In this document: positions 1-47,032 of the stretch, piece by piece
Numbering within the stretch: the first letter of the stretch is position 1
How the letters are laid out: each line of letters opens with the position of its first letter
NCBI GenBank assembly: GCA_030141605.1
Contig: JAQGDQ010001329.1
Coordinates: forward strand, 1-47,032
Direction: 5' to 3'
From: Tubiluchus corallicola
Taxonomy: Eukaryota; Animalia; Priapulida
Length of the DNA stretch: 47,032 nt
Translations under genes and position numbers: made by a program
The notes under the pieces: model-generated
The model's database searches: none
What the model was told of the DNA's origin: nothing
What the model saw: the letters and a program-made list of their open reading frames with translations, nothing else

Positions 1-2340
1 GATGCAGCCTCCAGCTACATCGCTAACGCAGGTGTATACACGTGAACGTAGCTAAAACCTCTAGTGTTACAGAATTCATCTCAGAGAACCTACTGGTCCT
101 GCCACAAACACCAGCGTGACTTGTATTTTAATGCTAAACACCGGTCTACTGATTGCCAAACCATATAAAAAATTCACACACTACACGCGTAGTCTTGCCA
201 GTCCTCACAATGTAGCTATGATTACAAATGTTATGACTGGTAAGTGCTTATTCTATAGGCCTACTATTAAGAAAAACTTCCTTACCTACAAAATAATTAA
301 AAAGCATCTGTTGAAAATTAAACTTAGGTAGGAATCCTGACTACTTTTTCGAATGTGTTCTATAAGAAAGCATCGCTAATCATATGACTTTTCAATCTGA
401 AACACCTAAATTTCCTTTATTTTTGATAAACGGTCGGAAGGGAACCCAGTAATGTGGAGGCAAAGTGTCTGTTTAGGTCACGAGAGCTTAAGTGTATCAT
501 CTGAAAAACTGTACAGTTTTCAGTTTATCTCAAATGACACCGAAATATTTGCGCTGATTCAAGTCAACTCAAAAATGTGTTCAATTGTTCAACTCAGAAC
601 AAGCACAAAAATGTTGGCAGAATGAAGCATTTTATTCGAAAATTATAATTTTTTGGTTCACGTCACAGTCGTAAATTGCAAATTATTTTACTGTTTACAT
701 TCAAGCCTCTTAGCTGCTCCTTGATATGATGGAAAGTCAGCAGCTGCCTTTTTAATGTACAGCTGAAAACAAGTAAAAAAGAAGAGTTTCAAACTATCAC
801 TGTAATGTATCTTTGGATGAGAGAAAAAGGGCAAAATATCACGTGGAATGACTAGTTAAAATTTTCTGTGTGTTTTTATTATTTATATTATTATCACAAA
901 GATATCACAATAATAATGATACAAGCACGTAGAAAGAAACCCAGAAACACAACAGATAAAAACAACAGAGAAGAAAATTGCAAAATCACTAAACACTAAT
1001 CCCAGCACAAAGTGAGACACAACAGAAACTCACAAAATGTCGATCTCGGTCATATGACTTATAGACAAAAAAGTTACTTATAGACGAGTATTGTCATAAG
1101 CTATTAGATATTTGTAAATCTACTGATTCTCACCCAGACGAGTACTCTCATAAGCTATTAGATATTTGTAAATCTACTGATGATTCTCACCCAGACGAAT
1201 ACTGCCTTGAGCTATTAGATATTTGTAAATCTACTGATGATTCTCACCCAGACGAGTATTGTCATAAGCTATTAGATATTTGTAAATCTACTGACGATTC
1301 TCACCCAGACGAGTACTGTCATAAGCTATTAGATATTGTAAATCTACTGATGATTCTCACCCAGACGAGTATTGTCATAAGCTATTAGATATTTGTAAAT
1401 CTACTGATGATTCTCACCCAGACGAGTACTGTCATAAGCTATTAGATATTGTAAATCTACTGATGATTCGCACCCAGACGTGTATTGTCATGAGCTATTA
1501 GATATTTGTAAATCTTCTGATGATTCTCACCCAGACGAGTATTGTCATGAGCTATTAGATATTTGTAAATCTACTGATTCACACCCAGACGAGTATTCTC
1601 ATAAGCTATTAGATATTTGTAAATCTACTGATTCTCACCCAGACGAGTACTGTCATAAGCTATTAGATATTGTAAATCTACTGATGATTCTCACCCAGAC
1701 GAGTACTGTCATAAGCTATTAGATATTGTAAATCTACTGATGATTCTCACCCAGACGAGTATTGTCATAAGCTATTAGATATTTGTAAATCTACTGATGA
1801 TTCTCACCCAGACGAGTATTGTCATAAGCTATTAGATATTTGTAAATCTACTGATGATTCTCACCCAGACGAGTACTGTCATAAGCTATTAGATATTGTA
1901 AATCTACTGATGATTCTCACCCAGACGAGTACTGTCATAAGCTATTAGATATTGTAAATCTACTGATGATTCTCACCCAGACGAGTATTGTCATAAGCTA
2001 TTAGATATTTGTAAATCTACTGATGATTCACACCCAGACGAGTACTGTCATAAGCTATTAGATGTTGTAAATCTACTGATGATTCTCACCCAGACGAGTA
2101 CTGTCATAAGCTATTAGATATTGTAAATCTACTGATGATTCGCACCCAGACGTGTAGTGTGTGAATTTTTTATATGGTTTGGCAATCAGTAGACCGGTGT
2201 TTAGCATTAAAATACAAGTCACGCTGGTGTTTGTGGCAGGACCAGTAGGTTCTCTGAGATGAATTCTGTAACACTAGAGGTTTTAGCTACGTTCACGTGT
2301 ATACACCTGCGTTAGCGATGTAGCTGGAGGCTGCATCACA
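1..2340. mobile_element. Putative non-autonomous TIR/foldback element with >=187-bp inverted repeats (1-187 / 2151-2337)
   Basis: 2151-2337 is the exact reverse complement of 1-187 (gatgcagcctcc...ctacacg vs cgtgtag...ggaggctgcatc). Right side continues 'aca' to 2340; left end and TSD lie outside the window. No transposase seen inside. Confidence 0.7.
1082..2150 (+). repeat. Minisatellite, ~19 copies of a 54-57 bp unit
   Basis: Consensus gacgagtattgtcataagctattagatatttgtaaatctactgatgattctcaccca; variants differ by a 1-bp (t) or 3-bp (gat) indel; array abuts the right inverted repeat. Confidence 0.97.
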
Positions 2341-20180: not shown

Positions 20181-21726
20181 AAACAGTTGGTTATCATCTG
20201 AAAGTAATTAGATAGATAATTGTTAACTACGCACTAACTATTAAGCATTGATATTAATTGACGCATCTGCATTGATATGCATTAACCAGTGGCGGCTCGT
20301 GTATGGGTACGGTGGTACTGCTGCACCCTGATTTTAGCGAATCCAGGGTTCAGCGTGGATCCGTCACAGGATGTACATGGCATACAAGTGATGACATTTC
20401 TCAGCAGATGAGATAAGTTAAAAGATCCAGAATACGAGTATGAAATAAACTTTAACGCTAACTAGTAGCTCCAAACTTTCAGAAAGAAGGACACGTGATC
20501 GTGTGAAGGACATATTATTATCTGAACTTTAAAAAAGATAGACGCATAGATACGTTTATCCTTCTTACTATCAAAAAAAATTCCCCAGGTAGAAGTCAAC
20601 GCTCCTCATTTAATCTCGTGAATTCGGAGGGATTTTAAGCTCAAAACAAAATGAACTTTGGCTCTACCGCACACCAAGAAAGGGTACTAACTAGGAGTAA
20701 AGAGAACTTGTTAAATTGTACTATATGTTAAATAGTTATGTTAATAAGAGTGTTACAGAAGGAAGCCAAATAAGGAGAGCTAAGGAGTGGTGCCACGAGA
20801 TGACGTAATTGACCTAGTTGTCAGGCTGCGCACGACGCTTATATATAAGACCCCGACAGATTTGTTTACTAATTTAAGCCTCTGGCTTTATATGTCTTTC
20901 TTCACAAAATGTTTTTCAAATTATTATTTGTATTACATCTCTGTGTGTATTGCACGGTATATAAAAGGTTATGAGAAGTTACGTTACGCTATGTGTTACT
21001 GAACTGGAGATTATCATGTAAAAGTAGTTAAGTAGGTAATCGTAAACTAATCATTAACTACTAAAATTGTCACAACTGCAACGACATCACTAACGTCTGT
21101 AATAACAATATTGAAATCTAAATGTAATTAAAGTACTTGGATTTTCTGAACAGCAGTTACGTTGTACTCGTAAATGAGAATCACCTTACACAAAATGGCC
21201 ATTAACCGCCGGTCGTCACTGCCTACACCATACCGATCAATAATACGTAACGTATACACGGACTGAAAATTTGTAATAAAGTCATCTACGAAAACATAAA
21301 CTATAAGTATAATGTCACGTGTCTTTTAGGCCATCCTGTAAAATTTTCAGTTCTATTCGAACCTACGTTTACTTCCACATACACGATATAAACTAGACAA
21401 ATAAAATATATTTAACGGAATATATCATAACGGAAAAGGATAGCGAGTCGAGCCGTCATTTAATAGATCAAAGCACTACTGAGATGGCACTATTTCATTC
21501 AAGTATAATGTGATGATATAATACTATTTTACTTAGCAATTTGATCTTTTTAAATTTGTTTGATGATTGACTGAAAATTTCTTCAACTAATTTTAAATAA
21601 TTCTCCAATTAAAACATCGACACATCAGCATGACAGTAAAATAAAGTCTGTTTATGATAGTGGTTATAGCTGCTGGCTGATTATCGTTGCTTATTATTGT
21701 GGTGGCTGAGGCTCGTGAAGATTGCG

Positions 21727-24784: not shown

Positions 24785-25085
24785 AGAGGACAAAAAACTT
24801 CCTTCCCAAATGACTTCCTAGAAGGCAGAACATTTCCTAGATGACAGAGGACTTCCTAGATGACAGAAGACATGCAAAAGGACAGACAGCTTCTTTGAGA
24901 ACAGAGGGACCTGTTATAGGACTTCCTAGATGCCAGAGGACATGCTAGAATCCAAAGTCTTTCTTGAGGATTTCCTACAAGACAGAAGACTTTCAGTAAA
25001 ACAAAGAACTTCCCAAAGAACTTCATAACGGACAGAATACTTATAGGAGGACAGAGGACTTCCAAAAGGACAGAAGGACATCCTA
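24785..25085 (+). repeat. Degenerate ~18-19 bp satellite (ggacagaggacttcctaga), locus 1
   Basis: Recurrent gacagaggacttcc / cttcctaga motifs. Confidence 0.85.
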
Positions 25086-29060: not shown

Positions 29061-30024
29061 ACAAAAAACTTGTAAGGGTTGCCTTTCTAATTCTTCTTTT
29101 AGCTCAGGTAGGAAGAGTGTTTTCCTTGCGATTTCAAATTTGGCTAAAGAACTATTTTTGCACATCTTTGTTATGAATTTGTTTCAGAATGTCGAATTAT
29201 TTATTAGAAAATAGAATTGAAATCTATCACAAGTGATTGGCGTCTGAAAGAAGATTATTCCGTTCGGCAAAAAAGACTCAACCAGCTTGTATCTTGAATT
29301 TATTGTATGCATGATCATATTTCGGACGACTGTGTAATAACTATAAGTAATAATCAGATCAACCTAGGAAATAGATAACGATAGCCTGAACTCTGTGACA
29401 TTGAAAGGGCTGTTAGCCTATATTGTTTCAGCTAGGGTTAACAATAACAGCTAGTTTATAACACAATACCACAGCACACCATTTCCGAGTTAAATAGCCA
29501 GTGGTCAAACTCCATTGTCCGAGAGTGAAATTCGTGTAGCCAACTCCAACTAATTTAACGAATATTAATGACAGCCTAAAGTAAGGCTATGTGCTACTGG
29601 AACTGGGCCTTGTCCCACTGACAGTAAATTCTTCAAGGCAGTAGTCAAGTCAGAGTGCTCTGACGGCCAGCCACGGAGTGTGTCGTGTCATCTGACAGAG
29701 TGAGAGAGAGATTTTGGGTTGGTTGTTTTCGGTTCGTGACAAAGGACGGAGTGGGCTCTCAAACCAAGGACTCTAAAGGTAGGAGATCGTTTACTATAGC
29801 TCAGCGTAGAGGAAACATCTGCATCATTGGAACTCCAACCACTGGTGCTTAGGATGTCTCGAGTAGAGTTTGGACTTGGCCAATTACAGTCATCTAAGAT
29901 TGGCCAGTCCCCGAGTTAAGTAGCTTTATATACTACTTAGTAAAAGTTGAGTAATTTGTGTTTACTGGTACTAAATTGTACATGTTTTTAAAACAAAGGT
30001 TGTTACGGAATCGTAGAATATTGT

Positions 30025-30700
30025 ATCGACTTCCAAAATTACAGAGGTTTTTCAAAAGGACAGAGGACTTCCAACAGGACAGGGGACTTCCAAGACTACA
30101 GAGGTTCTCCAAAAGAGCAGAGAACTCTCTAAAAGACAGATGACTTCCTAGGAGACAAAGTTCTTCCTAGAGGATTGAACACTTCGAATAGGACAGATGA
30201 CTTCTTTGAAGACGGAAGACCTACTAGAGGACTTCCTAAGCAAGTGAGGGTTTCTAGAACACAAAGGTTTTCCTAGTGGACTTCCTCGAAGGACAGAGGG
30301 CGTCTAAGAGGAAAGAGGATTTGTAAGAGGACAGAAGGCTTCCAAGAGGACAGAGGACTTCCGAGATGAAATCCCAGAGGACACAAGATTTGCAAAAAGA
30401 CAAAATTCTTCCCAAAGGACTTCATGGAGGATACAATACTTCCAAGAGGGCAGATGACTTCCAAGAGGTCAGAAGACTTCCCAGAGGACTTCCTAGAAGA
30501 CAGATGACTTCCTAGAAGACATTGTTCTTCCTAGAGGATTGAACACTTCCAATAGGACAGATGACTTCTTTGAAGACAGAAGCCCTCCTAGAGGTCTTAC
30601 TAGATGCCAGAGGGCATCCTAGAAGCCAAAGGTCTTCCTAGTAGACTTCCTAAAAGACAGAAGACTTCCAGAGGACAGAGGACTTCCAAGAAGACAAATG
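30025..30700 (+). repeat. Degenerate ~18-19 bp satellite, locus 2, with internal higher-order duplication
   Basis: Same gacagaggacttcc unit; ~30135-30290 repeats at ~30500-30660 (ttcttcctagaggattgaacacttc.aataggacagatgacttctttgaagac). Confidence 0.88.
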
Positions 30701-36059: not shown

Positions 36060-36596
36060 AAACGTTATAAATAAGAACTTAATAATTGACTAAATGTTTA
36101 CTGGGCATTTGTGAGTCTGTTTACTGAGGTTCGACCTACACCCTTGTGCAATTTATTTGCATTAAAACCGAAAACTTGGTTATTTGCACTACATACTGCC
36201 ATATAAAGTCTATCTACTTTTAGTACATGATTATAGTTTGATTATAGGCCACAAATTCTCAATGGGGTTGAGGTCGGAGAAGTCTCCCGGCCAATTCACT
36301 ACCGTAATTTTTATTTTCTTCATGTATTCCATCAGTTTTTTTGTCTTCTGACATGGCGCAGAGTCCTGTTGAAATATTCCAAATCCATCCAGAAAAGTGC
36401 TTTCAAGATCCCAGACGACTTTTTTGTCTTAAACCTTTGTGTATCTGAATTCATCATTCATTCTATGGGCAGCAATGACCTAATGCCGTAATAACTGAAA
36501 GTACCCCAAAACATCTTCTTGGGGGTGGATGCTTTATAGATTGATCAATATTGCACTCACATATGGGTTCTCCAATGGATCGACGGACGTGCGTTG
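36060..36596 (-). mobile_element. Tc1-family DD34E transposase C-terminal fragment, decayed
   Basis: HVRRSIGE...SIKHP, then IFQQDSAPC...NWPGDFSDLNPIENLW with 34 residues counted between D and E; stops and frameshifts present. Confidence 0.88.
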
Positions 36597-37205
36597 TCCA
36601 AACAAAGTTTTTGGGAATTCGCCGGACAAAGTTTTGCACAAATTCGCCAAACAAAGTTTCTGGGAATTCGCCGGACAAAGTTTTGTGCAAATTCACCATA
36701 CAAAGTTTTTGGGAATTCGCCGGACAAAGTTTTGTGCAAATTTGCAGGACAAAGTTTTTGCTCAAATTCGCCAAACAAAGTTTTTGGGAATTCGCCAAAC
36801 AAAGTTTTGTGCAAATTCGCCATACAAAGTTTTTGGGAATTCGCTGGACAAAGTTTTGTGCAAATTCGCCATAGAAAGTTTTTGGGAATTCGCCGGACAA
36901 AGTTTTGCGCAAATTCGCCATACAAAGTTTTTGGGAATTCGCCGGACAAAGTTTTGCGCAAATTCGCCATACAAAGTTTTTGGGAATTCGCCGGACAAAG
37001 TTTTGCGCAAATTCGCCAAGCAAAGTTTTTGGGAATTCGCCGGACAAAGTTTTGCGCAAATTCGCCATACAAAGTTTTTGGGAATTCGCCGGACAAAATT
37101 TTGTGCAAATTCGCCGGACAAAGTTTTGCGCAAATTCGCCAAACAAAGTTTTTGGAAATTCGCCGGACAAAGTTTTGGAGTAATTTGCCAGACAAAGTTT
37201 TCGAA
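36597..37205. repeat. Tandem array of a 49-bp dimer (25+24 bp related subunits), ~12 copies
   Basis: ttcgccggacaaagttttgcgcaaa + ttcgccatacaaagtttttgggaa. Confidence 0.96.
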
Positions 37206-37424
37206 CAAATTGTGCAAAGACGAATCACTGTGATCAAATGCAAATGCGTAGTTCAGTCCCTTCATCAAACCATGAACTTAGGGGGTCACTAAGAACACAC
37301 GAACAACAGCTGCTCAGCCGAACTATTTAGCCATGCTAATTCATAAAATATGAAATGTAAAAATGTTTAATTTTGTGACATTGAGCACGAGTTCCTTCAC
37401 TCGATGTGTTTTTTTATTATCTTT

Positions 37425-37790
37425 CTACTAGAAAGTCCTGCTTTGTTTTCTAAGAAGTCCTTTGTGTTCTAGGAAGTCCTCTTTCCTCTAGAAAGTCCTC
37501 TGTCAACGTGGAACTCCTCTGTCTTCCTGGAAGTCTTCTGTCCTCATTCTACATCTGCGTTCTGTCCTCTCGGAAGTGCTCCGTCCTCTAGGAAGTCCTC
37601 CGTCCTCGAGGAAGTCTTCTGTCATTTTGGAAGTAATCTGTCCTACAGGAAGTCTTATGTCTTTGAAGAAGTCCTCCAGTCCTCTGTCATCTTTGAAGTT
37701 CTCTGTCCTCTTGGAAGTCATGTGTCCTCTGTCCTCTAGGATACGCCTATCCTCTAGGATGTCTGACTTCAAAGAAGAATGATTCAATTC
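37425..37790 (-). repeat. Degenerate ~18-19 bp satellite, locus 3 (inverted)
   Basis: ggaagtcctctgtc motifs are the reverse complement of the unit at 24.8 kb and 30 kb. Confidence 0.85.
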
Positions 37791-40241: not shown

Positions 40242-40600
40242 TGTGGTACAGTGGAAAGTACGTTGTGTGTAGCTGTTTATGAACGTTTGAGTAATGGCAA
40301 AGCTATTAAGACTTTATTTGCGAAATCACTATTAAATAACATCACAATAAACATAATATATAGATAGCAGTGCCAAGGCACCTGATCTACGAGAGACGTC
40401 CTGCTTGCAGGTGTGAACTACAACCCAGCTCTCCTGCTGGCTGATGTCGATGTCTTATATATGAGCTGCATGCGCAGCCTGACAAGTGGGTCAGCTCTCA
40501 AGCACGCCGTCACGTGGTACCACTCCTTAAGCTCTCCTTATTTGGCTGGCTTCAATAAGACTCTTCTTAACATAATTATTTAATATGTAGTATATTTTAA
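40242..40600 (-). mobile_element. Solo-LTR-like dispersed repeat, copy 3
   Basis: See copies 1 and 2; begins tgtgg, carries ttatatat at ~40455. Confidence 0.5.
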
Positions 40601-40922
40601 CAGGTTTTCTTTACTGTAAGCACTCTTTTGGCAAAGGAGATTAAATTTTGGTAATTTCAGTTAATAATCTGTTAGTCCTAGTGGCACAGCTCATTTGAAG
40701 CATGTTGTTCATAGGAATAGCTATAACTTTCAATAATTAACATCATTAACATGATTCTGCTCGGATCATTTGTGATTACAATCCGGTACTTTTAACTCAA
40801 TTGAAGTATTTTGCCATTCTTTTAATGGTGCTCCAGGGTGGTGATTTAATTTAAAAAACTTTATATTCTGTAGACATTCTTATCTGCATTTGCTTTTCAT
40901 CTCTTCTTAGCATTCGCTGGGG

Positions 40923-41610
40923 AGTAGTGTGTATGTTACACCTCTGGTCCATAGGCCACGCCCCATTTGGCTGCCCGGGGGGGTGGGGACAAAAACACCC
41001 CTAAAAAAATGCGAAAATCCGCGAACACCCCTAAAAAAGTGTGAAAAAAAGTGTGAAAGTGCCCGAAACCGTGCACGTGACCGAAATCGAATAAAAAGCG
41101 TGAAAAACAAAGAAAAACAAAGAAAAAGCGTGTGAAACGAGGGGAAAATTTTGCAGTTTTTCCCCTCCCACATGGCTTCACTTGGATCAAATGACCTTGA
41201 ACTCTAGGTCACGTGACCAAAGTTCATTGACCCCTAGATGGCTTCTTTTTTTGACACTCCATTTTAAACCGCGCGAAAGCGTGTGAAAGCGTGTAAAAGT
41301 GTGTGAAAGTGTGTGAAACGAGGTAAAAAGCGCCTCAAACAAAGAAAAAGGGAGAAGTGGAGTTCCCGCCGAGGACTAATTAGTGCTAATTAGCGCTAAT
41401 TGGGGAGTCCGCTGCCACCCCTCCGTCGCGTGCAAACGTCCGTCCCGGGGGTCGGGACCCCCCTGCAACCCACCCCTCCATCGCGTGGAATCGTCCGCTG
41501 CAGGCAATGAGGGAAATCTTTTTCCCACCACTCACACAGTGCCGGTCTTTTTCCGCAACCACTTCTCTCTTGGGTGCCGGCCCTTTCCCACGACCACTAC
41601 TCTCTGGGGT
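40923..41610 (+). repeat. Probable Maverick terminal inverted repeat region with sub-terminal short repeats
   Basis: AGTAGT start; repeated aacacccctaaaaa x2, gtgtgaaa many, gtgtgaaacgagg x2, cacgtgacc x2, aacaaagaaaaa x3. Partner TIR not in window, so inner boundary is a guess. Confidence 0.6.
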
Positions 41611-41614
41611 TTAG

Positions 41615-41615
<1 letters not shown>

Positions 41616-41661
<46 letters not shown>
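41616..41661 (+). repeat. (TG)23 microsatellite
   Basis: Perfect dinucleotide run. Confidence 0.98.
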
Positions 41662-41662
<1 letters not shown>

Positions 41663-41863
41663 AGATTTATTTCAAACGCCAAAGTTCGATAAATGCATTT
41701 TCACAAATCTTTTTTTATTGATAGATTACAAAAAAATTTTTTTTACATTTTTTTATGCAAAATACATACGTGCTAAAACTAGATTATTATTATGGTGACA
41801 TGATAGTTCTACATTTTACGTTTTTTTCGCAAATTACACAAATTACGCAAATTACAGTAAAAA

Positions 41864-42459
41864 CTACACTAATGACGACGACGACGAGCGAGTACATAGG
41901 TTGTCGTCGTCGTCGTCGATGTGATACAGGCAAACGTTATTGTTGTTAAAAACGAATTCGTTAAATTTGCGGAAAACGCGAGAGAAATCCTCGACGTTTG
42001 TCCCGCCCATCATTATCATGCTTCCGGTGTGAAAAATGTTCAGAGTAATTTGCTCGCATTTACAAGTAAATTGGGAAATAGTTCCACTTCGTAAAACACT
42101 TCTCTAAAAGAATGCGTCGAAGGACGAACGAGTTCTTCGTACAGTGCACCCAGTTTCAATCTGCAGCGAATTTTGGCTCTGGCGGTGATGGTGCGAATTG
42201 CGATCCCGTCGGCGGGCATCAGTCCGAGACCTTTCGAGAGTTCTTCGATCGCATTTCGTAGTACTTTTTCCTCAGAAAAACCATTGGCCACCATGGAGCC
42301 GGAGGCAAAAATCATCAGCGTCCCGCCCAGTCGCTTTAGCAGAAGCATTTGCGGTTTCCTTTCGTAGCGTCTTCTGCCCGTTCTCCGTCGGAGTTCGTTC
42401 AGATCGAAGCGCTGCAAGAACGAAGCCGTGGCGACGATGTTGACCGTTTGGACTGACAC
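41864..42459 (-). pseudogene. TATA-box-binding-protein-like domain (both TBP repeats), single -1 frameshift at ~42050
   Basis: Repeat 1 VNIVATA...FDL...YE...LLLKR..GTLMIFASGSMVANG; repeat 2 LKLGALY...YEVELFPNL, continuing after the shift as ITLNIFHTGSMIMMGG...to TAG at 41866-41864. Confidence 0.85.
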
Positions 42460-42984
42460 GTTAGAACGTAGTTGGCAATCGTTTTGGACGCCCGAATTGC
42501 TCTGCCTCGTCCGTTGCTCTGCCAACGTATGGCGGGCGGCGGGCGGCAGGTGCTCGCTTTCCAGATCCTCTACGCGTATGACCACGCGATTTTTGGGGAG
42601 ATGTTTTTTGACGAAATCGTACATCTCTGCTCCCTTGACATAGGTGATCCTGCCTCTGGTGGTCTGTCGTAGAATGTTTTCCAATTCTGCGTACTCGATC
42701 ATTCCCTCCTCCCACGAGATGCCGTGTATGTGTCTGATTAGGTAGTTGTAGGTGGATCGCTTGTGCTGGGGAGAGACTTGATTTTTCGAAGGTGTATTTT
42801 TTATGACCTTGTTGGGGGCACTCTTGCGTGCGTTGGCACGCTTGCAGCCCCGCGTCCCCGGTTGTTGTTGTTGCTTGCGAGGAATGGTGGTTAGAGGTTG
42901 TTTGAAATCCTGCAGTGGTTGTTTATAATCCTGCAAGAGAAGAAGAAGAACAATAGTTATAGTATTGTTGTTCGCTAACGACAA
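42460..42984 (-). CDS. Maverick-associated conserved domain of unknown function, in frame with the TBP-like domain
   Basis: NYLIRHIHGISWEEGMIEYAELENIL...ITYVKGAEM..FV...VEDL fits an HG+.W..G...Y..L..IL...IYVKG.EK motif I recall from invertebrate Polinton ORFs; no ATG at the ORF start. Confidence 0.5.
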
Positions 42985-43929
42985 CTAGGCATTTTTGATG
43001 AGCCATTCTTTCAGATTTCTAGGTTTTTTGGGGGCAGAGGGTGCAGTGGGGGTGAGCACCATCGGCGGCGATGGAGGGGGCGTCGCGGAAATTACGAGTT
43101 TGTCTTCTTCTTCTTCATCATCTTTCTCCTCTTCCTCCTCCTCCTCTCGAAAGATGTCCATTCGTGTCCCTCTCTCGCGTCTGCTTTTACACGGAGGGGC
43201 GGAGGTGCCGACGTCGACGACATTGCCGGCAGACTTCTTTCCGCCCAGTTTGTTCAGTTCCACACGTACCCGTCTTCTCGTATCTGCTCCTTTCAATATT
43301 CTGCGTCCCATTCTACCGATGATGACGCACTGTCCATTTAGCAGACTTCCATCTCTAATGGACACTCCCTCGATGCAGAGGAAACCTTGCCAAACTGTCA
43401 TTCTACGGCGCGGCGACAACTGACATTCGTAGTATTCGTCGTCGTCCTCTATTTTGTCTATCTCCCCCTGTAGTTTTTCGTATTCTTCCAGATGGAGGTT
43501 GATGCCGGGTTTGGTCGGAACGAGCGTGGCGACGTCACCGCTGTCCTCATATTTCCTCTTCACTTTTTCGACCGCCCGTCTGAGACCTATGCTGGGATGC
43601 GTTGCCCATTTGCTGATCAACACGTAGGTCTGCCCGCACAGAAATATGGCACCGGGATGCCGTTGACGTTGATACTTTGCCCTCGTCCAGTAGTGTGACG
43701 TTTTCACGGCTATGATCATCCTATCGATTAATTCCGATTCCAGCAGCGCCTGCACGGCCTCCTGACTCAACTCAAAATTTTGCTCGGGAAAGATGAAGAG
43801 CGGTCTAGAGTTTGCTATCATGAAAGATGTTCTGGCAGACAGTTGTATTTCAAAATCCGTATAAGATATCTCCTCATTCATGGCAGTCAGAATTTCTTCT
43901 TGTTTACGTACGGGTTTGCCATATTCCAT
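42985..43929 (-). CDS. PC4/p15(Sub1)-like ssDNA-binding/coactivator domain protein with acidic, Pro-rich tail
   Basis: YVLISKWATHPSIGLRR...LVPTKPGINLHLEEYEKLQGEIDKI matches PC4 YV.V..F.G...IDIR...P.KKGISL..EQW..L; open from ATG 43929 to TAG; tail EEEEEEKDDEEEED, PPPSPP, PKKPR. Confidence 0.7.
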   Translation of the reverse strand: MEYGKPVRKQEEILTAMNEEISYTDFEIQLSARTSFMIANSRPLFIFPEQNFELSQEAVQALLESELIDRMIIAVKTSHYWTRAKYQRQRHPGAIFLCGQTYVLISKWATHPSIGLRRAVEKVKRKYEDSGDVATLVPTKPGINLHLEEYEKLQGEIDKIEDDDEYYECQLSPRRRMTVWQGFLCIEGVSIRDGSLLNGQCVIIGRMGRRILKGADTRRRVRVELNKLGGKKSAGNVVDVGTSAPPCKSRRERGTRMDIFREEEEEEEKDDEEEEDKLVISATPPPSPPMVLTPTAPSAPKKPRNLKEWLIKNA

Positions 43930-44544
43930 CACCGTCAAAGACACGTGCTTCCCCCTAGTGAGTTTTTCGTAGCGGGTTCGTAGTTAGATCGTCGCCGAAA
44001 GTGAACCTACGAATAAAAGGTCAAAAAATTTTTTAACACGCTCCTGCCCCCTGATGCTAAATAAAACAGGAAAAACAACGTTTCGGTATTCGAAAAGCTA
44101 GAAAAATAATAATGAACATTTACTCACCTGATACACCTCGTCTAAGGATGAAAGCGATGTTGACAAATCGTGTGTCAGAGGATACACCAAGGCGTCATTC
44201 TCCATCATTAACATATAGCGATGTTTTTTCGTCGTCCACGGATGTATGTGCTATCGCTGTGTCGCTCGAGACACTTGTGTCATCCCCCGTCAAAACACCC
44301 CATTATATGGCCGCTCTCTTCCGGTTGACGTCACCCAATGGTCGTTTGCCGTTAACAATACCTCAAGCGTGAATGACGCAGCGTCTGTTCACTCTACCGT
44401 TTTTCCCACCAAACCGTCACGATGCATATCTATTGTGAAAAAAACACGCTGTTTGAACACGTTCGAGTGGGCTAACCGTTTTTTTCTGTACACATTGCGG
44501 TATTTTTATTCTTATTTTGATAAAAAATTTATAAAGGAAGGTAG

Positions 44545-44761
44545 ATTACCTACAGAATTTAAACGGGGTACGACGCTCTTTGGATTTAACCTATCTCCAG
44601 ATCAAAGCCTGGTTGGACATCGCCAAGGCGATAAAGGCGGTCAAGTACGTATCGAATTGAAATTTGCACAAGCATTACCACACACCGTAAATGTGGTGGT
44701 CATGGCAGTATTTGATGCCAAAATCGAGATAACAAAATTACTTGACGTCATAACACTATAA
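44545..44761 (+). pseudogene. Maverick major capsid protein (double jelly-roll), C-terminal ~70 aa only
   Basis: EFKRGTTLFGFNLSPD...GQVRIELKFAQALPHTVNVVVMAVFDAKIEI matches G..LFAFDL.PD...G..R+E..F..AL...V.......F...IEI. Confidence 0.85.
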
Positions 44762-44862
44762 TGTTAACGTTAACAGTACTCGTGTCGACGACGGCATCGG
44801 CAATAGCTGCAGCAGCGACACCATTTTTATCTATGGTTAGTTCTTTAAGGACGATGACAGGA

Positions 44863-45366
44863 ATGAACACCCTTCAATTGGAAGACTTCATGCAAAAACG
44901 CGCCCCTCCCGCAGTGAAACATCGATTTTGAGGGGTTTATTCGTCTTCTGAATTACTGGAGAGTGTCACAGTGAATGAACTCCCTGCTAGCTATATTGTC
45001 AACACTCAACCCAGCAATTTACCGGGCGAACACTGGGTGGCGCTCTATTTAGAGACCTCTGGTCGTGGAGAGTTATTCGATTCCTACGGATTGGCACCCA
45101 CCTATAGAATTAGGAAATTTTTAAATAAAAATTGTAGAGGGAAATGGACTTACAACACGAAAGCATTACAATCACCCATCCTTCCTTGTTGCGGAGCGTA
45201 CGCTTTATGGTTTTGTTGTAGACGACCTTATTACGACTCTCTACAGCAGCTGGTGTGTAATTTCCAGCCATTGTTCCTAGACAGAGAAGTGGTGTTGATG
45301 AAGCATCTATTTTCCATCGATGGCGATGATGATGATGATGATCGCTATAAACCACATCGCCGTTGA
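44863..45366 (+). pseudogene. Adenain-like (adenovirus-type) cysteine protease with premature stop
   Basis: MNTLQL...F*GVY (TGA 44929-44931), YIVNTQPSNLPGEHWVAL (His), FDSYG (Asp), LQ...CCGAY (Gln, Cys). In-frame ATG at 44761 overlaps the capsid TAA. Confidence 0.92.
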
Positions 45367-46482: not shown

Positions 46483-46667
46483 CAACAGCATTAAAACATC
46501 ATTTACTAACAACAATACTTTAAAGCATCATATAGTAGCTTCATACAATGTACTTTTCTCACAATGGAGGTGGGATTGCAACATTTCAAACAGACTACAG
46601 ACTGTTACATAAATACAATATTTAGCCGGTTGGATCGTGTCCCTCCCTCCCTCTAACATATTTGTTG

Positions 46668-47032
46668 TCATAGAATAACACTATCATCATCGTCATCATC
46701 AACATCATCATCAGCACAGATATTGACAACAGTTACGTTAGCAGGACCGTGAAAAGGTTGATTTTCGACGGGAGGAGCGACACTAGAAACAAAAGGTTTT
46801 GTCTGGTCTACTAAATAATGTCCGTATGGAACGCTGAAATTTTTTGACAGCCAGCATCTTTTATCGTCAAAAAAAGATAGCGATCTTTTGGAAGAACGTT
46901 TAGTGTATATGTGATGTCGTTGCGATGTGAAGCGAATTGTGTCGTGTGTCTGTTCCACCTGCTCTGTAAAGGCACGCTCAAAATCTTCGTGAGTTATTTG
47001 TTTTGAAATTGTGCGCCTATCGTAAAGCTTTA
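46668..47032 (-). CDS. Protein-primed family B DNA polymerase (pPolB), C-terminus; 5' part outside window
   Basis: Open from window edge: RRTISKQITHEDF...IRFTSQRHHIYTKRSSKRSLSFFDDKRCWL....SVPYGH, the I.S..H.+YT....K..LS..DDKR...P.GH tail of Polinton pPolB. Confidence 0.88.
   Translation of the reverse strand, partial: KLYDRRTISKQITHEDFERAFTEQVEQTHDTIRFTSQRHHIYTKRSSKRSLSFFDDKRCWLSKNFSVPYGHYLVDQTKPFVSSVAPPVENQPFHGPANVTVVNICADDDVDDDDDDSVIL

What the first reader, a model, noticed from the sequence alone, without database searches (positions are those of the whole stretch)
41864..43929. Maverick carrying its own basal transcription module: TBP-like next to PC4-like
Seen: just inside the terminus, two co-oriented intronless ORFs give a two-repeat TBP fold and a PC4-like domain. 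Known: core Polinton genes are pPolB, integrase, ATPase, protease and two capsid proteins; TBP homologs are typical of large nucleocytoviruses; cellular PC4 is a Pol II coactivator acting at the TBP/TFIIA stage and an ssDNA-binding protein. Inference: the element may redirect host Pol II to its own promoters with a private TBP plus coactivator; PC4 could alternatively be the SSB for strand-displacement replication. I cannot confirm whether this pairing has been reported.
Basis: partly seen in the sequence, partly recalled or inferred. Interest (0 to 1): 0.88.

Follow-up and report, generated by a model that had tools for sequence, protein, structure and literature searches.

The report
Maverick's own regulator-proof TATA-binding protein
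A repeated virus-like Maverick element in an animal genome carries its own heavily altered TATA-binding protein gene, broken in this copy, whose product likely still grips DNA and recruits the host's TFIIB while likely escaping host brakes; the neighbouring gene only weakly resembles PC4 and is more likely a single-stranded-DNA binder than a partner.

Summary
The TBP is real, but the anatomy was misread. Both TBP repeats hit Pfam TBP, in different frames: this copy is broken near 42070 and 42545. The 220-aa 'TBP ORF' is a chimera. Its first half is a separate conserved Maverick gene (~165-aa family, possibly nuclease-fold) whose tail overlaps the TBP start in another frame. Sister copies and a 58%-identical natural relative are unbroken. 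Identity to human TBP repeat 1 is 22 of 77, so it is not a recent retrocopy. The TBP keeps three of four DNA-kinking phenylalanines and both TFIIB-contact glutamates, but not the helix-2 basic patch used by host regulators. Best reading (0.5): a viral promoter factor that borrows host TFIIB/Pol II. PC4 is only weakly supported (Pfam E 0.007, below cut-off; folds failed), and no TBP-PC4 partnership is shown. 'Intronless' is doubtful: strand S1 of TBP has no start codon, and splice-like sites exist. A TBP label already appears in a figure legend of Starrett 2021. This scan has noted Polinton TBPs in six earlier findings on other genomes, two of them with PC4.

The parts
40923..41860 (.). Left end of the Maverick: AGTAGT terminus and non-coding terminal region (the other end lies outside the window, so the inverted repeat and target duplication were not seen)
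   Evidence: Sequence. Contig depth rises across ~40900-41000 in 4 of 4 runs. AGTAGT as a Polinton end is recalled.
41666..41719 (-). The only two AATAAA signals on the - strand between 40900 and 44400: likely shared 3' end of the PC4-like, 165-family and TBP genes
   Evidence: the shared transcript is inferred
41864..42064 (-). TBP second repeat, C-terminal part (S3-S5, H2, acidic tail), out of frame with the rest in this copy
   Evidence: Pfam TBP E 4.3e-5; 64% identity to P0001 residues 94-129
42073..42465 (-). TBP first repeat and first half of the second repeat, including the E-x-E-L-F stirrup. No ATG upstream of strand S1 in this stretch; internal Met at 42348
   Evidence: 58% identity to P0001
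42399..42542 (-). Tail of the ~165-aa family gene, overlapping the TBP start in another frame
   Evidence: 53% identity to P0002 residues 53-99; overlap test
42550..42786 (-). Core of a conserved Maverick gene (~165-aa family; HG..W..G and YVKG motifs; Maelstrom/DEDD-like fold is a lead only). The family's first ~30 profile positions were not found
   Evidence: relative beside capsid, ATPase and protease genes in L001; Atlas lead 0.87
42905..42955 (-). Strong splice-acceptor-like tract ending at 42931, directly followed by a TATAAA at 42927: acceptor or internal promoter
   Evidence: The only strong acceptor on the - strand of the element; TATAAA; function untested
42985..43929 (-). 314-aa unbroken ORF with a weakly PC4-like domain at residues ~89-165 (43435-43665) and an acidic, proline-rich tail
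   Evidence: Pfam PC4 E 0.066 and 0.0072, below cut-off; folds uninformative
44127..44214 (-). Candidate first exon (29 codons from ATG 44214) ending in a CAG|GTGAGT donor at 44127
   Evidence: The only such donor in the element, against 1 in 40.9 kb of host DNA on both strands; no RNA support
44531..44761 (+). Probable C-terminal remnant of the major capsid gene; the upstream part is missing in this copy
   Evidence: Recalled resemblance only: no Pfam or BLAST match. A sister contig has ~1.1 kb of other sequence before 44548.
44863..45366 (+). Adenain-type maturation protease, interrupted by a stop at 44929-44931 in this copy
   Evidence: Pfam Peptidase_C5 E 0.0043, under cut-off; E 4e-9 to the L001 protease
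46668..47030 (-). Probable C-terminus of the protein-primed DNA polymerase B, running off the window
   Evidence: Recalled motif only; no Pfam, PHROG, PDB or phage match

Best explanation
A multi-copy Maverick/Polinton family in an animal genome encodes its own deeply diverged TBP, which likely binds the element's promoters and likely recruits host TFIIB and Pol II through its retained glutamate stirrup, while likely escaping Mot1/TAF1/TFIIA-type control because its basic helix-2 patch is lost. SHOWN: the TBP fold; the residue pattern; its presence in sister copies and a distant relative; the overlap with a conserved ~165-aa Maverick gene; that this copy is broken. INFERRED: DNA binding with altered specificity (one of four Phe and one of two Asn lost); TFIIB recruitment; a role in turning on element (probably late) genes; expression from one 3'-coterminal unit with the PC4-like and 165-family genes by splicing or internal starts. 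The PC4-like protein is most likely an ssDNA-binding helper for strand-displacement replication rather than a dedicated coactivator.
For: TBP fold in both repeats. Against human TBP (chain 1c9b; offset to 339-aa numbering) F214, F288, F305, N167, E284, E286 and L287 are kept, F197 aligns to Q and N257 to T. E-x-E-L-F-P is also kept in P0001, P0035 and L002. Ravarani 2020 (PMC7221094, sections 11 and 12 read) names two C-lobe glutamates as the TFIIB contact and an N-lobe basic cluster as the dock for TFIIA, TAF1, Mot1 and Brf; matching their codes to these residues is my inference. Of 5 basic helix-2 positions (R231, R235, K236, R239, K243) the window keeps 2 and P0001 keeps 0; none is basic in both. 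Sister contigs lack the window's breaks, and contigs ~82-85% identical cover the TBP. Differences to sisters are synonymous at 15 of 28 sites pooled over the three genes, against ~29% expected, P 0.005. P0002's tail is compatible with TBP strand S1 in the shifted frame at 10 of 13 changed junctions (null 5.2-7.0; P 0.001-0.036). The only - strand poly(A) signals lie after TBP.
Against: No binding, expression or promoter data: no listed holder is on record as RNA. The TBP-only synonymous excess is not significant (5 of 10, P 0.13). The overlap control region upstream of S1 was also above one of the two nulls (12 of 19; P 0.005 and 0.12), so that test is modest. No start codon precedes S1, and the Met shared with P0001 would give a protein without S1-H1-S2. 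E-x-E could be kept for structure, or to bind TFIIB as a decoy. A shared late-promoter box could not be examined, because the capsid and ATPase upstream regions are missing in this copy. Depth is not copy number, and X2-X4 are one sample that may be the window's source. Capsid and polymerase identities rest on recalled motifs.
Confidence: 0.5

Rival explanations
1. First reader's module: TBP and the PC4-like protein act together as a private initiation pair on element promoters.
For: Co-oriented neighbours with one shared poly(A) region; weak PC4 match. A low-depth joint 42731-43494 in 3 of 4 runs shows the same gene order in another copy. PC4 is a coactivator (abstract of PMC9409219). Unchecked earlier notes report both genes in two other Polinton findings.
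Against: PC4 is below cut-off and outranked by Lipocalin_10. A third gene separates them. The TBP lacks the N-lobe patch used by TFIIA. The PC4 fold is a general ssDNA-binding fold (listing of PMC7549692 and PMC3575825), which a strand-displacing polymerase would need anyway (inference).
Confidence: 0.2
2. The TBP is a decoy: it binds host TFIIB (or Brf) and dampens host transcription or defence, rather than activating element promoters.
For: The TFIIB glutamates are kept while one Phe and one Asn of the DNA face are lost. A start at the Met shared with P0001 would give an incomplete saddle.
Against: Both universally conserved Phe positions (my mapping of L5.1) and strand S1 are retained, S1 even under an overlapping gene, which suggests the DNA face still matters.
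Confidence: 0.17
3. The 220-aa ORF is a real fusion of a nuclease-fold domain with TBP.
For: Open frame in the window; TBP lobes occur in RNase HIII (PMC7221094 passage); the TBP frame has no start of its own.
Against: 0 of 25 library hits carry both parts. P0002 aligns across a frame change and ends with its own stop. The listed sister contigs that span ~42545 differ in length from the window there. A regulated frameshift is not excluded, but by eye I saw no canonical slippery site.
Confidence: 0.07
4. A recently captured host TBP retrocopy, or a dead hitchhiker without function.
For: This copy is broken in TBP, protease and capsid. Close TBP relatives are rare: 1 among 1.84 billion representatives.
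Against: 22 of 77 identity to human repeat 1 (hand count) and 26-33% to archaeal-type TBPs, whereas animal TBP cores are nearly invariant (recalled). Unbroken in sisters and in P0001. GC and CpG match the element (0.50, o/e 1.22), not the host (0.35, 0.77).
Confidence: 0.04

Closest known systems
Cellular TBP (Pfam PF00352; human 1c9b/1cdw) and the paralogue TBPL1/TRF2
   Same: Two-repeat saddle; F214, F288, F305, N167 and the TFIIB stirrup E284/E286/L287 kept.
   Different: About 29% identity; F197 and N257 lost; helix-2 basic patch not conserved; encoded by a mobile element and overlapped by another gene. TBPL1 has Trp at N.L5.1 (PMC7221094 passage); here Phe. No tree against eukaryotic paralogues could be built.
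Viral TBPs of large dsDNA viruses (Ravarani 2020, PMC7221094)
   Same: DNA-face Phe kept, N-lobe regulator patch lost.
   Different: Those show only ~40% conservation at the TFIIB glutamate and mostly come with their own TFIIB. Here both glutamates are kept, and no TFIIB-like gene was seen in the 6 kb of element held (the rest is missing).
Beta/gammaherpesvirus vTBP (KSHV ORF24; PMC12529657, passages read)
   Same: A viral TBP mimic in a virus that relies on host Pol II: the working model for late-gene activation.
   Different: ORF24 is a large multidomain protein, keeps all four Phe, lacks the TFIIB glutamates and works in a six-protein complex. This is a bare TBP core that keeps them.
TBP-labelled gene in MELD viruses with adintovirus-like PolB (Starrett 2021, PMC8502044, Fig. 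5 legend)
   Same: A TBP-like gene in a Polinton-related element.
   Different: Only a legend label, with no analysis in the text I saw. The figure is not held, so I cannot tell which element carries it. PC4 is not mentioned (0 occurrences).
PC4/Sub1 (Pfam PF02229) and PC4-like ssDNA-binding domains
   Same: Weak match to profile positions 25-50 of 52; by eye the upstream strand pattern also resembles PC4 (recalled).
   Different: Below cut-off; ~13-residue insertion (by eye); embedded in a 314-aa ORF with an acidic tail; fold unconfirmed.

Membership tests
TBP family (PF00352) | Profile match above the curated cut-off in both repeats | tested here: met
   42.4 and 23.7 bits against 22.9; P0001 two stretches, 56.9 bits
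TBP family (PF00352) | Four intercalating Phe and two central Asn | tested here: not met
   3 of 4 Phe, 1 of 2 Asn: a divergent member, not a canonical TATA binder
TBP family (PF00352) | C-lobe glutamate pair for TFIIB | tested here: met
   E-V-E in the window, E-F-E in P0001
Eukaryotic cellular TBP | N-lobe basic cluster for TFIIA/TAF1/Mot1/Brf | tested here: not met
   Window 2 of 5, P0001 0 of 5 helix-2 basic positions
TBP family (PF00352) | DNA and TFIIB binding | not testable with these tools
   Needs biochemistry
PC4/Sub1 (PF02229) | Profile match above cut-off | tested here: not met
   13.2 and 16.3 bits against 25
PC4/Sub1 (PF02229) | Beta-sheet plus helix fold forming a dimer | tested here: inconclusive
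   Single-sequence models with pLDDT 35.6 and 31.3; no relatives found to build an alignment
Maverick/Polinton | Adenain-type protease | tested here: met
   E 4e-9 to the L001 protease; Pfam C5 E 0.004, under cut-off
Maverick/Polinton | Interspersed repeat beginning with AGTAGT | tested here: met
   40923-40928; summed contig depth 14- to 161-fold over the flank in 4 of 4 runs (not a copy number)
Maverick/Polinton | pPolB and double jelly-roll capsid | tested here: inconclusive
   Only short remnants with recalled motifs; no tool match
Maverick/Polinton | Integrase, packaging ATPase, paired terminal repeats, 6-bp target duplication | not testable with these tools
   Outside the window or missing in this copy; no genome held
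Maelstrom/DEDD-like nuclease fold (for the ~165-aa gene) | Profile or fold match | tested here: inconclusive
   No Pfam or PDB match; Atlas feature score 0.87 with 158 shared features to a Maelstrom cluster for homologue P0015, a lead only

The most novel reading that the evidence does not exclude
This Maverick lineage runs an adenovirus-like, alternatively spliced, 3'-coterminal regulatory unit that makes three proteins: a TFIIB-competent but regulator-proof TBP, a PC4-fold ssDNA binder and a nuclease-fold protein genetically interlocked with the TBP. Together they form a minimal viral pre-initiation complex that couples strand-displacement replication to late-gene transcription by host Pol II.
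Probability: 0.15. Interest if true: 0.85.

Novelty: new variant of a known kind. Interest (0 to 1): 0.55.

Why it matters
How Mavericks/Polintons time their capsid genes without an RNA polymerase of their own is open. A bare TBP that keeps the host-TFIIB contact but drops the surface used by host inhibitors differs from both known viral solutions: giant-virus TBP with its own TFIIB, and herpesvirus vTBP that lacks the TFIIB contact. It gives a direct test: TFIIB pull-down, Mot1 resistance, binding-site selection. The report also warns that ORF calls in decayed copies can create false fusions.

Tried and rejected
No whole genome is held, so intact sisters could not be read. Word-index searches with the 220-aa ORF and with the PC4-like ORF found nothing; the TBP alignment found 2 of 349 candidates. 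Scans of viral contigs: 1 of 7 gave a locus (L001); the TBP, PC4-like, polymerase and capsid queries gave none. Metagenome scans: none, then one 1.3-kb locus L002 with a TBP beside a YqaJ-like gene, of unknown element type. So TBP-PC4 linkage across Polintons was not surveyed. The six L001 ORFs scanned show no TBP or PC4, but that contig is partial. No RNA holder listed; the guessed RNA run X6 laid 0 contigs; this is no evidence on expression. Two single-sequence folds of the PC4-like protein failed, so no fold search was run. The two-copy complex job on residues 89-165 gave no verdict (0.19). My idea of three tandem PC4 repeats was not supported (59, 124 and 994 of 1000 shuffles reached the scores). 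The Atlas answered only for P0015. No TBP tree was built: no eukaryotic TBP sequence was available as a stored protein. Sites dropped before the synonymous count: 3 at the breaks and 5 upstream of 42780, where the frame is uncertain, of 33 listed; the 6 PC4-ORF sites are from a table cut to 40 of 273 rows. Trypanothione reductase and Lipocalin_10 matches to the PC4-like ORF were taken as chance.

Full report
CONTEXT. The first 40.9 kb are intron-rich animal-type DNA (GC 0.35) with glycosyl- and sulfotransferase exons. At 40923 an element begins with AGTAGT. Public contigs laid on it are 14 to 161 times deeper than on the flank in 4 of 4 runs. Summed depth is not a copy number, and X2-X4 are one sample that may be the source, but 428 and 725 variant contigs on 1.25 kb show a repeat family. 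A protease matches that of a Maverick contig (E 4e-9). Capsid and polymerase remnants are recognised from recalled motifs only. This copy is decayed: the protease has a stop, and most of the capsid region is missing.

THE TBP IS REAL BUT BROKEN HERE. Pfam TBP is hit above cut-off in two different frames, and 35 of 35 PDB hits are TBPs. The copy changes frame near 42070. A natural relative, P0001 (58% identical), reads through that place. Sister contigs differ in length from the window there.

THE 220-AA ORF IS A CHIMERA. A full HMMER scan of 1.84 billion proteins gave 25 hits: 17 match only the N-part and 8 only the TBP part. The N-part belongs to a ~165-aa family without a Pfam name. One member sits beside capsid, ATPase and protease genes in viral contig L001. 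The Atlas gives a Maelstrom-like lead only (0.87). P0002 aligns to the window across a frame change near 42545 and ends at 42399, inside the TBP's first repeat. P0001 and P0002 both come from contigs of 1855 nt; that it is one contig is inferred. The listed sister contigs spanning 42545 differ in length from the window there, including contigs ~82-85% identical. So the family has two overlapping genes. P0002's tail can encode the window's TBP strand S1 in the shifted frame at 10 of 13 changed junctions (null 5.2 or 7.0; P 0.001 or 0.036). The upstream control gave 12 of 19 (P 0.005 or 0.12), so the support is modest. At 42498-42537 five sister differences are all synonymous in the 165-family frame and four are non-synonymous in the TBP frame: the TBP frame is unconstrained upstream of its core.

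SELECTION AND ORIGIN. Synonymous differences to sisters: TBP 5 of 10 (P 0.13), 165-family 7 of 12 (P 0.03), PC4-like ORF 3 of 6; pooled 15 of 28 against ~0.29 expected (P 0.005) (dropped sites are listed under Tried and rejected). Identity to human repeat 1 is 22 of 77 by hand count and 26-33% to archaeal-type TBPs. A recent retrocopy is excluded; the donor lineage is undetermined. Two more distant divergent TBPs (P0035, L002) share E-V-E-L-F-P; their element type is unknown.

SURFACES. With human numbering taken: F214, F288, F305, N167, E284, E286 and L287 are kept; F197 and N257 are lost. Of five basic helix-2 residues, two remain basic in the window and none in P0001. Ravarani 2020 (PMC7221094; passages and sections 7, 8, 11, 12 read) assigns the glutamate pair to TFIIB and Brf, and the basic cluster to TFIIA, TAF1, Mot1 and Brf. 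It reports that viral TBPs usually lose both and bring their own TFIIB. KSHV ORF24 also lacks the glutamates (PMC12529657, passages). The pattern here, TFIIB contact kept and regulator dock lost, is what a factor borrowing host TFIIB would look like. That is inference; a TFIIB decoy fits as well.

HOW IT IS EXPRESSED. Between 42300 and 43000 the - strand has ATGs only at 42992, 42702, 42641, 42624, 42348 and 42315. Once the overlap is taken into account, none opens the TBP frame ahead of S1. Options: splicing (the element's only CAG|GTGAGT at 44127 and only strong acceptor at 42931); an internal promoter (TATAAA at 42927); or a short TBP from Met 42348, where P0001 also starts. The only - strand poly(A) signals lie after the TBP, so the three genes likely share a 3' end. 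No RNA could test this. 'Intronless' is unproven.

PC4. The 314-aa ORF is unbroken. Residues 79-165 match the last half of Pfam PC4 at 16.3 bits against a cut-off of 25. No relatives, PDB hit or usable model were obtained. I put PC4-like ancestry at about 65%, partly from a recalled by-eye resemblance. Nothing here shows a partnership with the TBP. An ssDNA-binding role is the plainer reading for an element with a strand-displacing polymerase.

WHAT IS IN PRINT. Searches: Polinton + TATA-binding protein, 5 papers (listing only); Maverick/Polinton/PC4; adintovirus + TBP, 2; Polinton + PC4, 1 paper, PMC11662393, not read; Maverick + TBP + transposon + capsid, 2; splicing terms. Starrett 2021 (PMC8502044; passages, section 10, and one supplement of ~4.0 million characters, possibly cut, with 0 hits) and its preprint (passages; supplements not seen) carry 'TBP' only in figure legends. 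Term searches in PMC10748475, PMC8097293 and 10.64898/2026.06.19.733378 gave 0 for TBP and PC4. PMC7549692: term search only. Subscription papers and Repbase are not covered. The scan's own unchecked notes list six Polinton TBP findings on other genomes, two with PC4. Their late-box idea could not be tested here.

VERDICT. A genuine element-borne TBP in a decayed copy of a repeated Maverick family: a new variant of the viral-TBP theme, barely noted in print and seen repeatedly in this scan. New here are the conserved overlap with a Maverick gene and the TFIIB-kept, regulator-lost surface. The TBP+PC4 module remains a hypothesis. Interest 0.55.

Noticed in passing
window 41192-41233: Five nuclear-receptor-type half-sites (RGKTCA/TGAMCY) in 42 bases of the terminal region, the densest cluster in the window; 0 of 2000 shuffles of 40925-41600 reach five in 60 bases (pattern chosen after seeing it). 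One pair has the inverted 1-base spacing of ecdysone/FXR elements (recalled). Possible hormone-responsive enhancer.
   Followed up: partly
window 44758-44762: The capsid-remnant stop overlaps an ATG (TAATG) that is in frame with the protease; possible stop-start coupling.
   Followed up: no
window 1-2337: Non-autonomous element with perfect 187-nt inverted ends enclosing an array of 56/57-nt repeats.
   Followed up: no
window 24800-25080, 30020-30700, 37425-37765: Dispersed family of 19-nt tandem repeats, in both orientations.
   Followed up: no
window 36530-37270: Array of 49-nt units (24+25) with long open frames on both strands.
   Followed up: no
window 20696-20858 and 40445-40615: Two ~85% identical inverted copies of another repeat; the second lies 300 bases before the Maverick end.
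   Followed up: no
window 42564-42773, 43028-43531, 46556-46807 in run X1: Summed depth in run X1 (type unknown) peaks several-fold over the 165-family, PC4-like and polymerase parts but not over TBP. It could mean related elements without TBP; contig depth cannot rank genes.
   Followed up: no
L002:2-1161: Divergent TBP directly followed by a YqaJ-like exonuclease gene on a 1.3-kb metagenome contig.
   Followed up: partly
window 1-35000: Cluster of glycosyltransferase (GT49, GT64, GT2-like) and sulfotransferase exons.
   Followed up: partly
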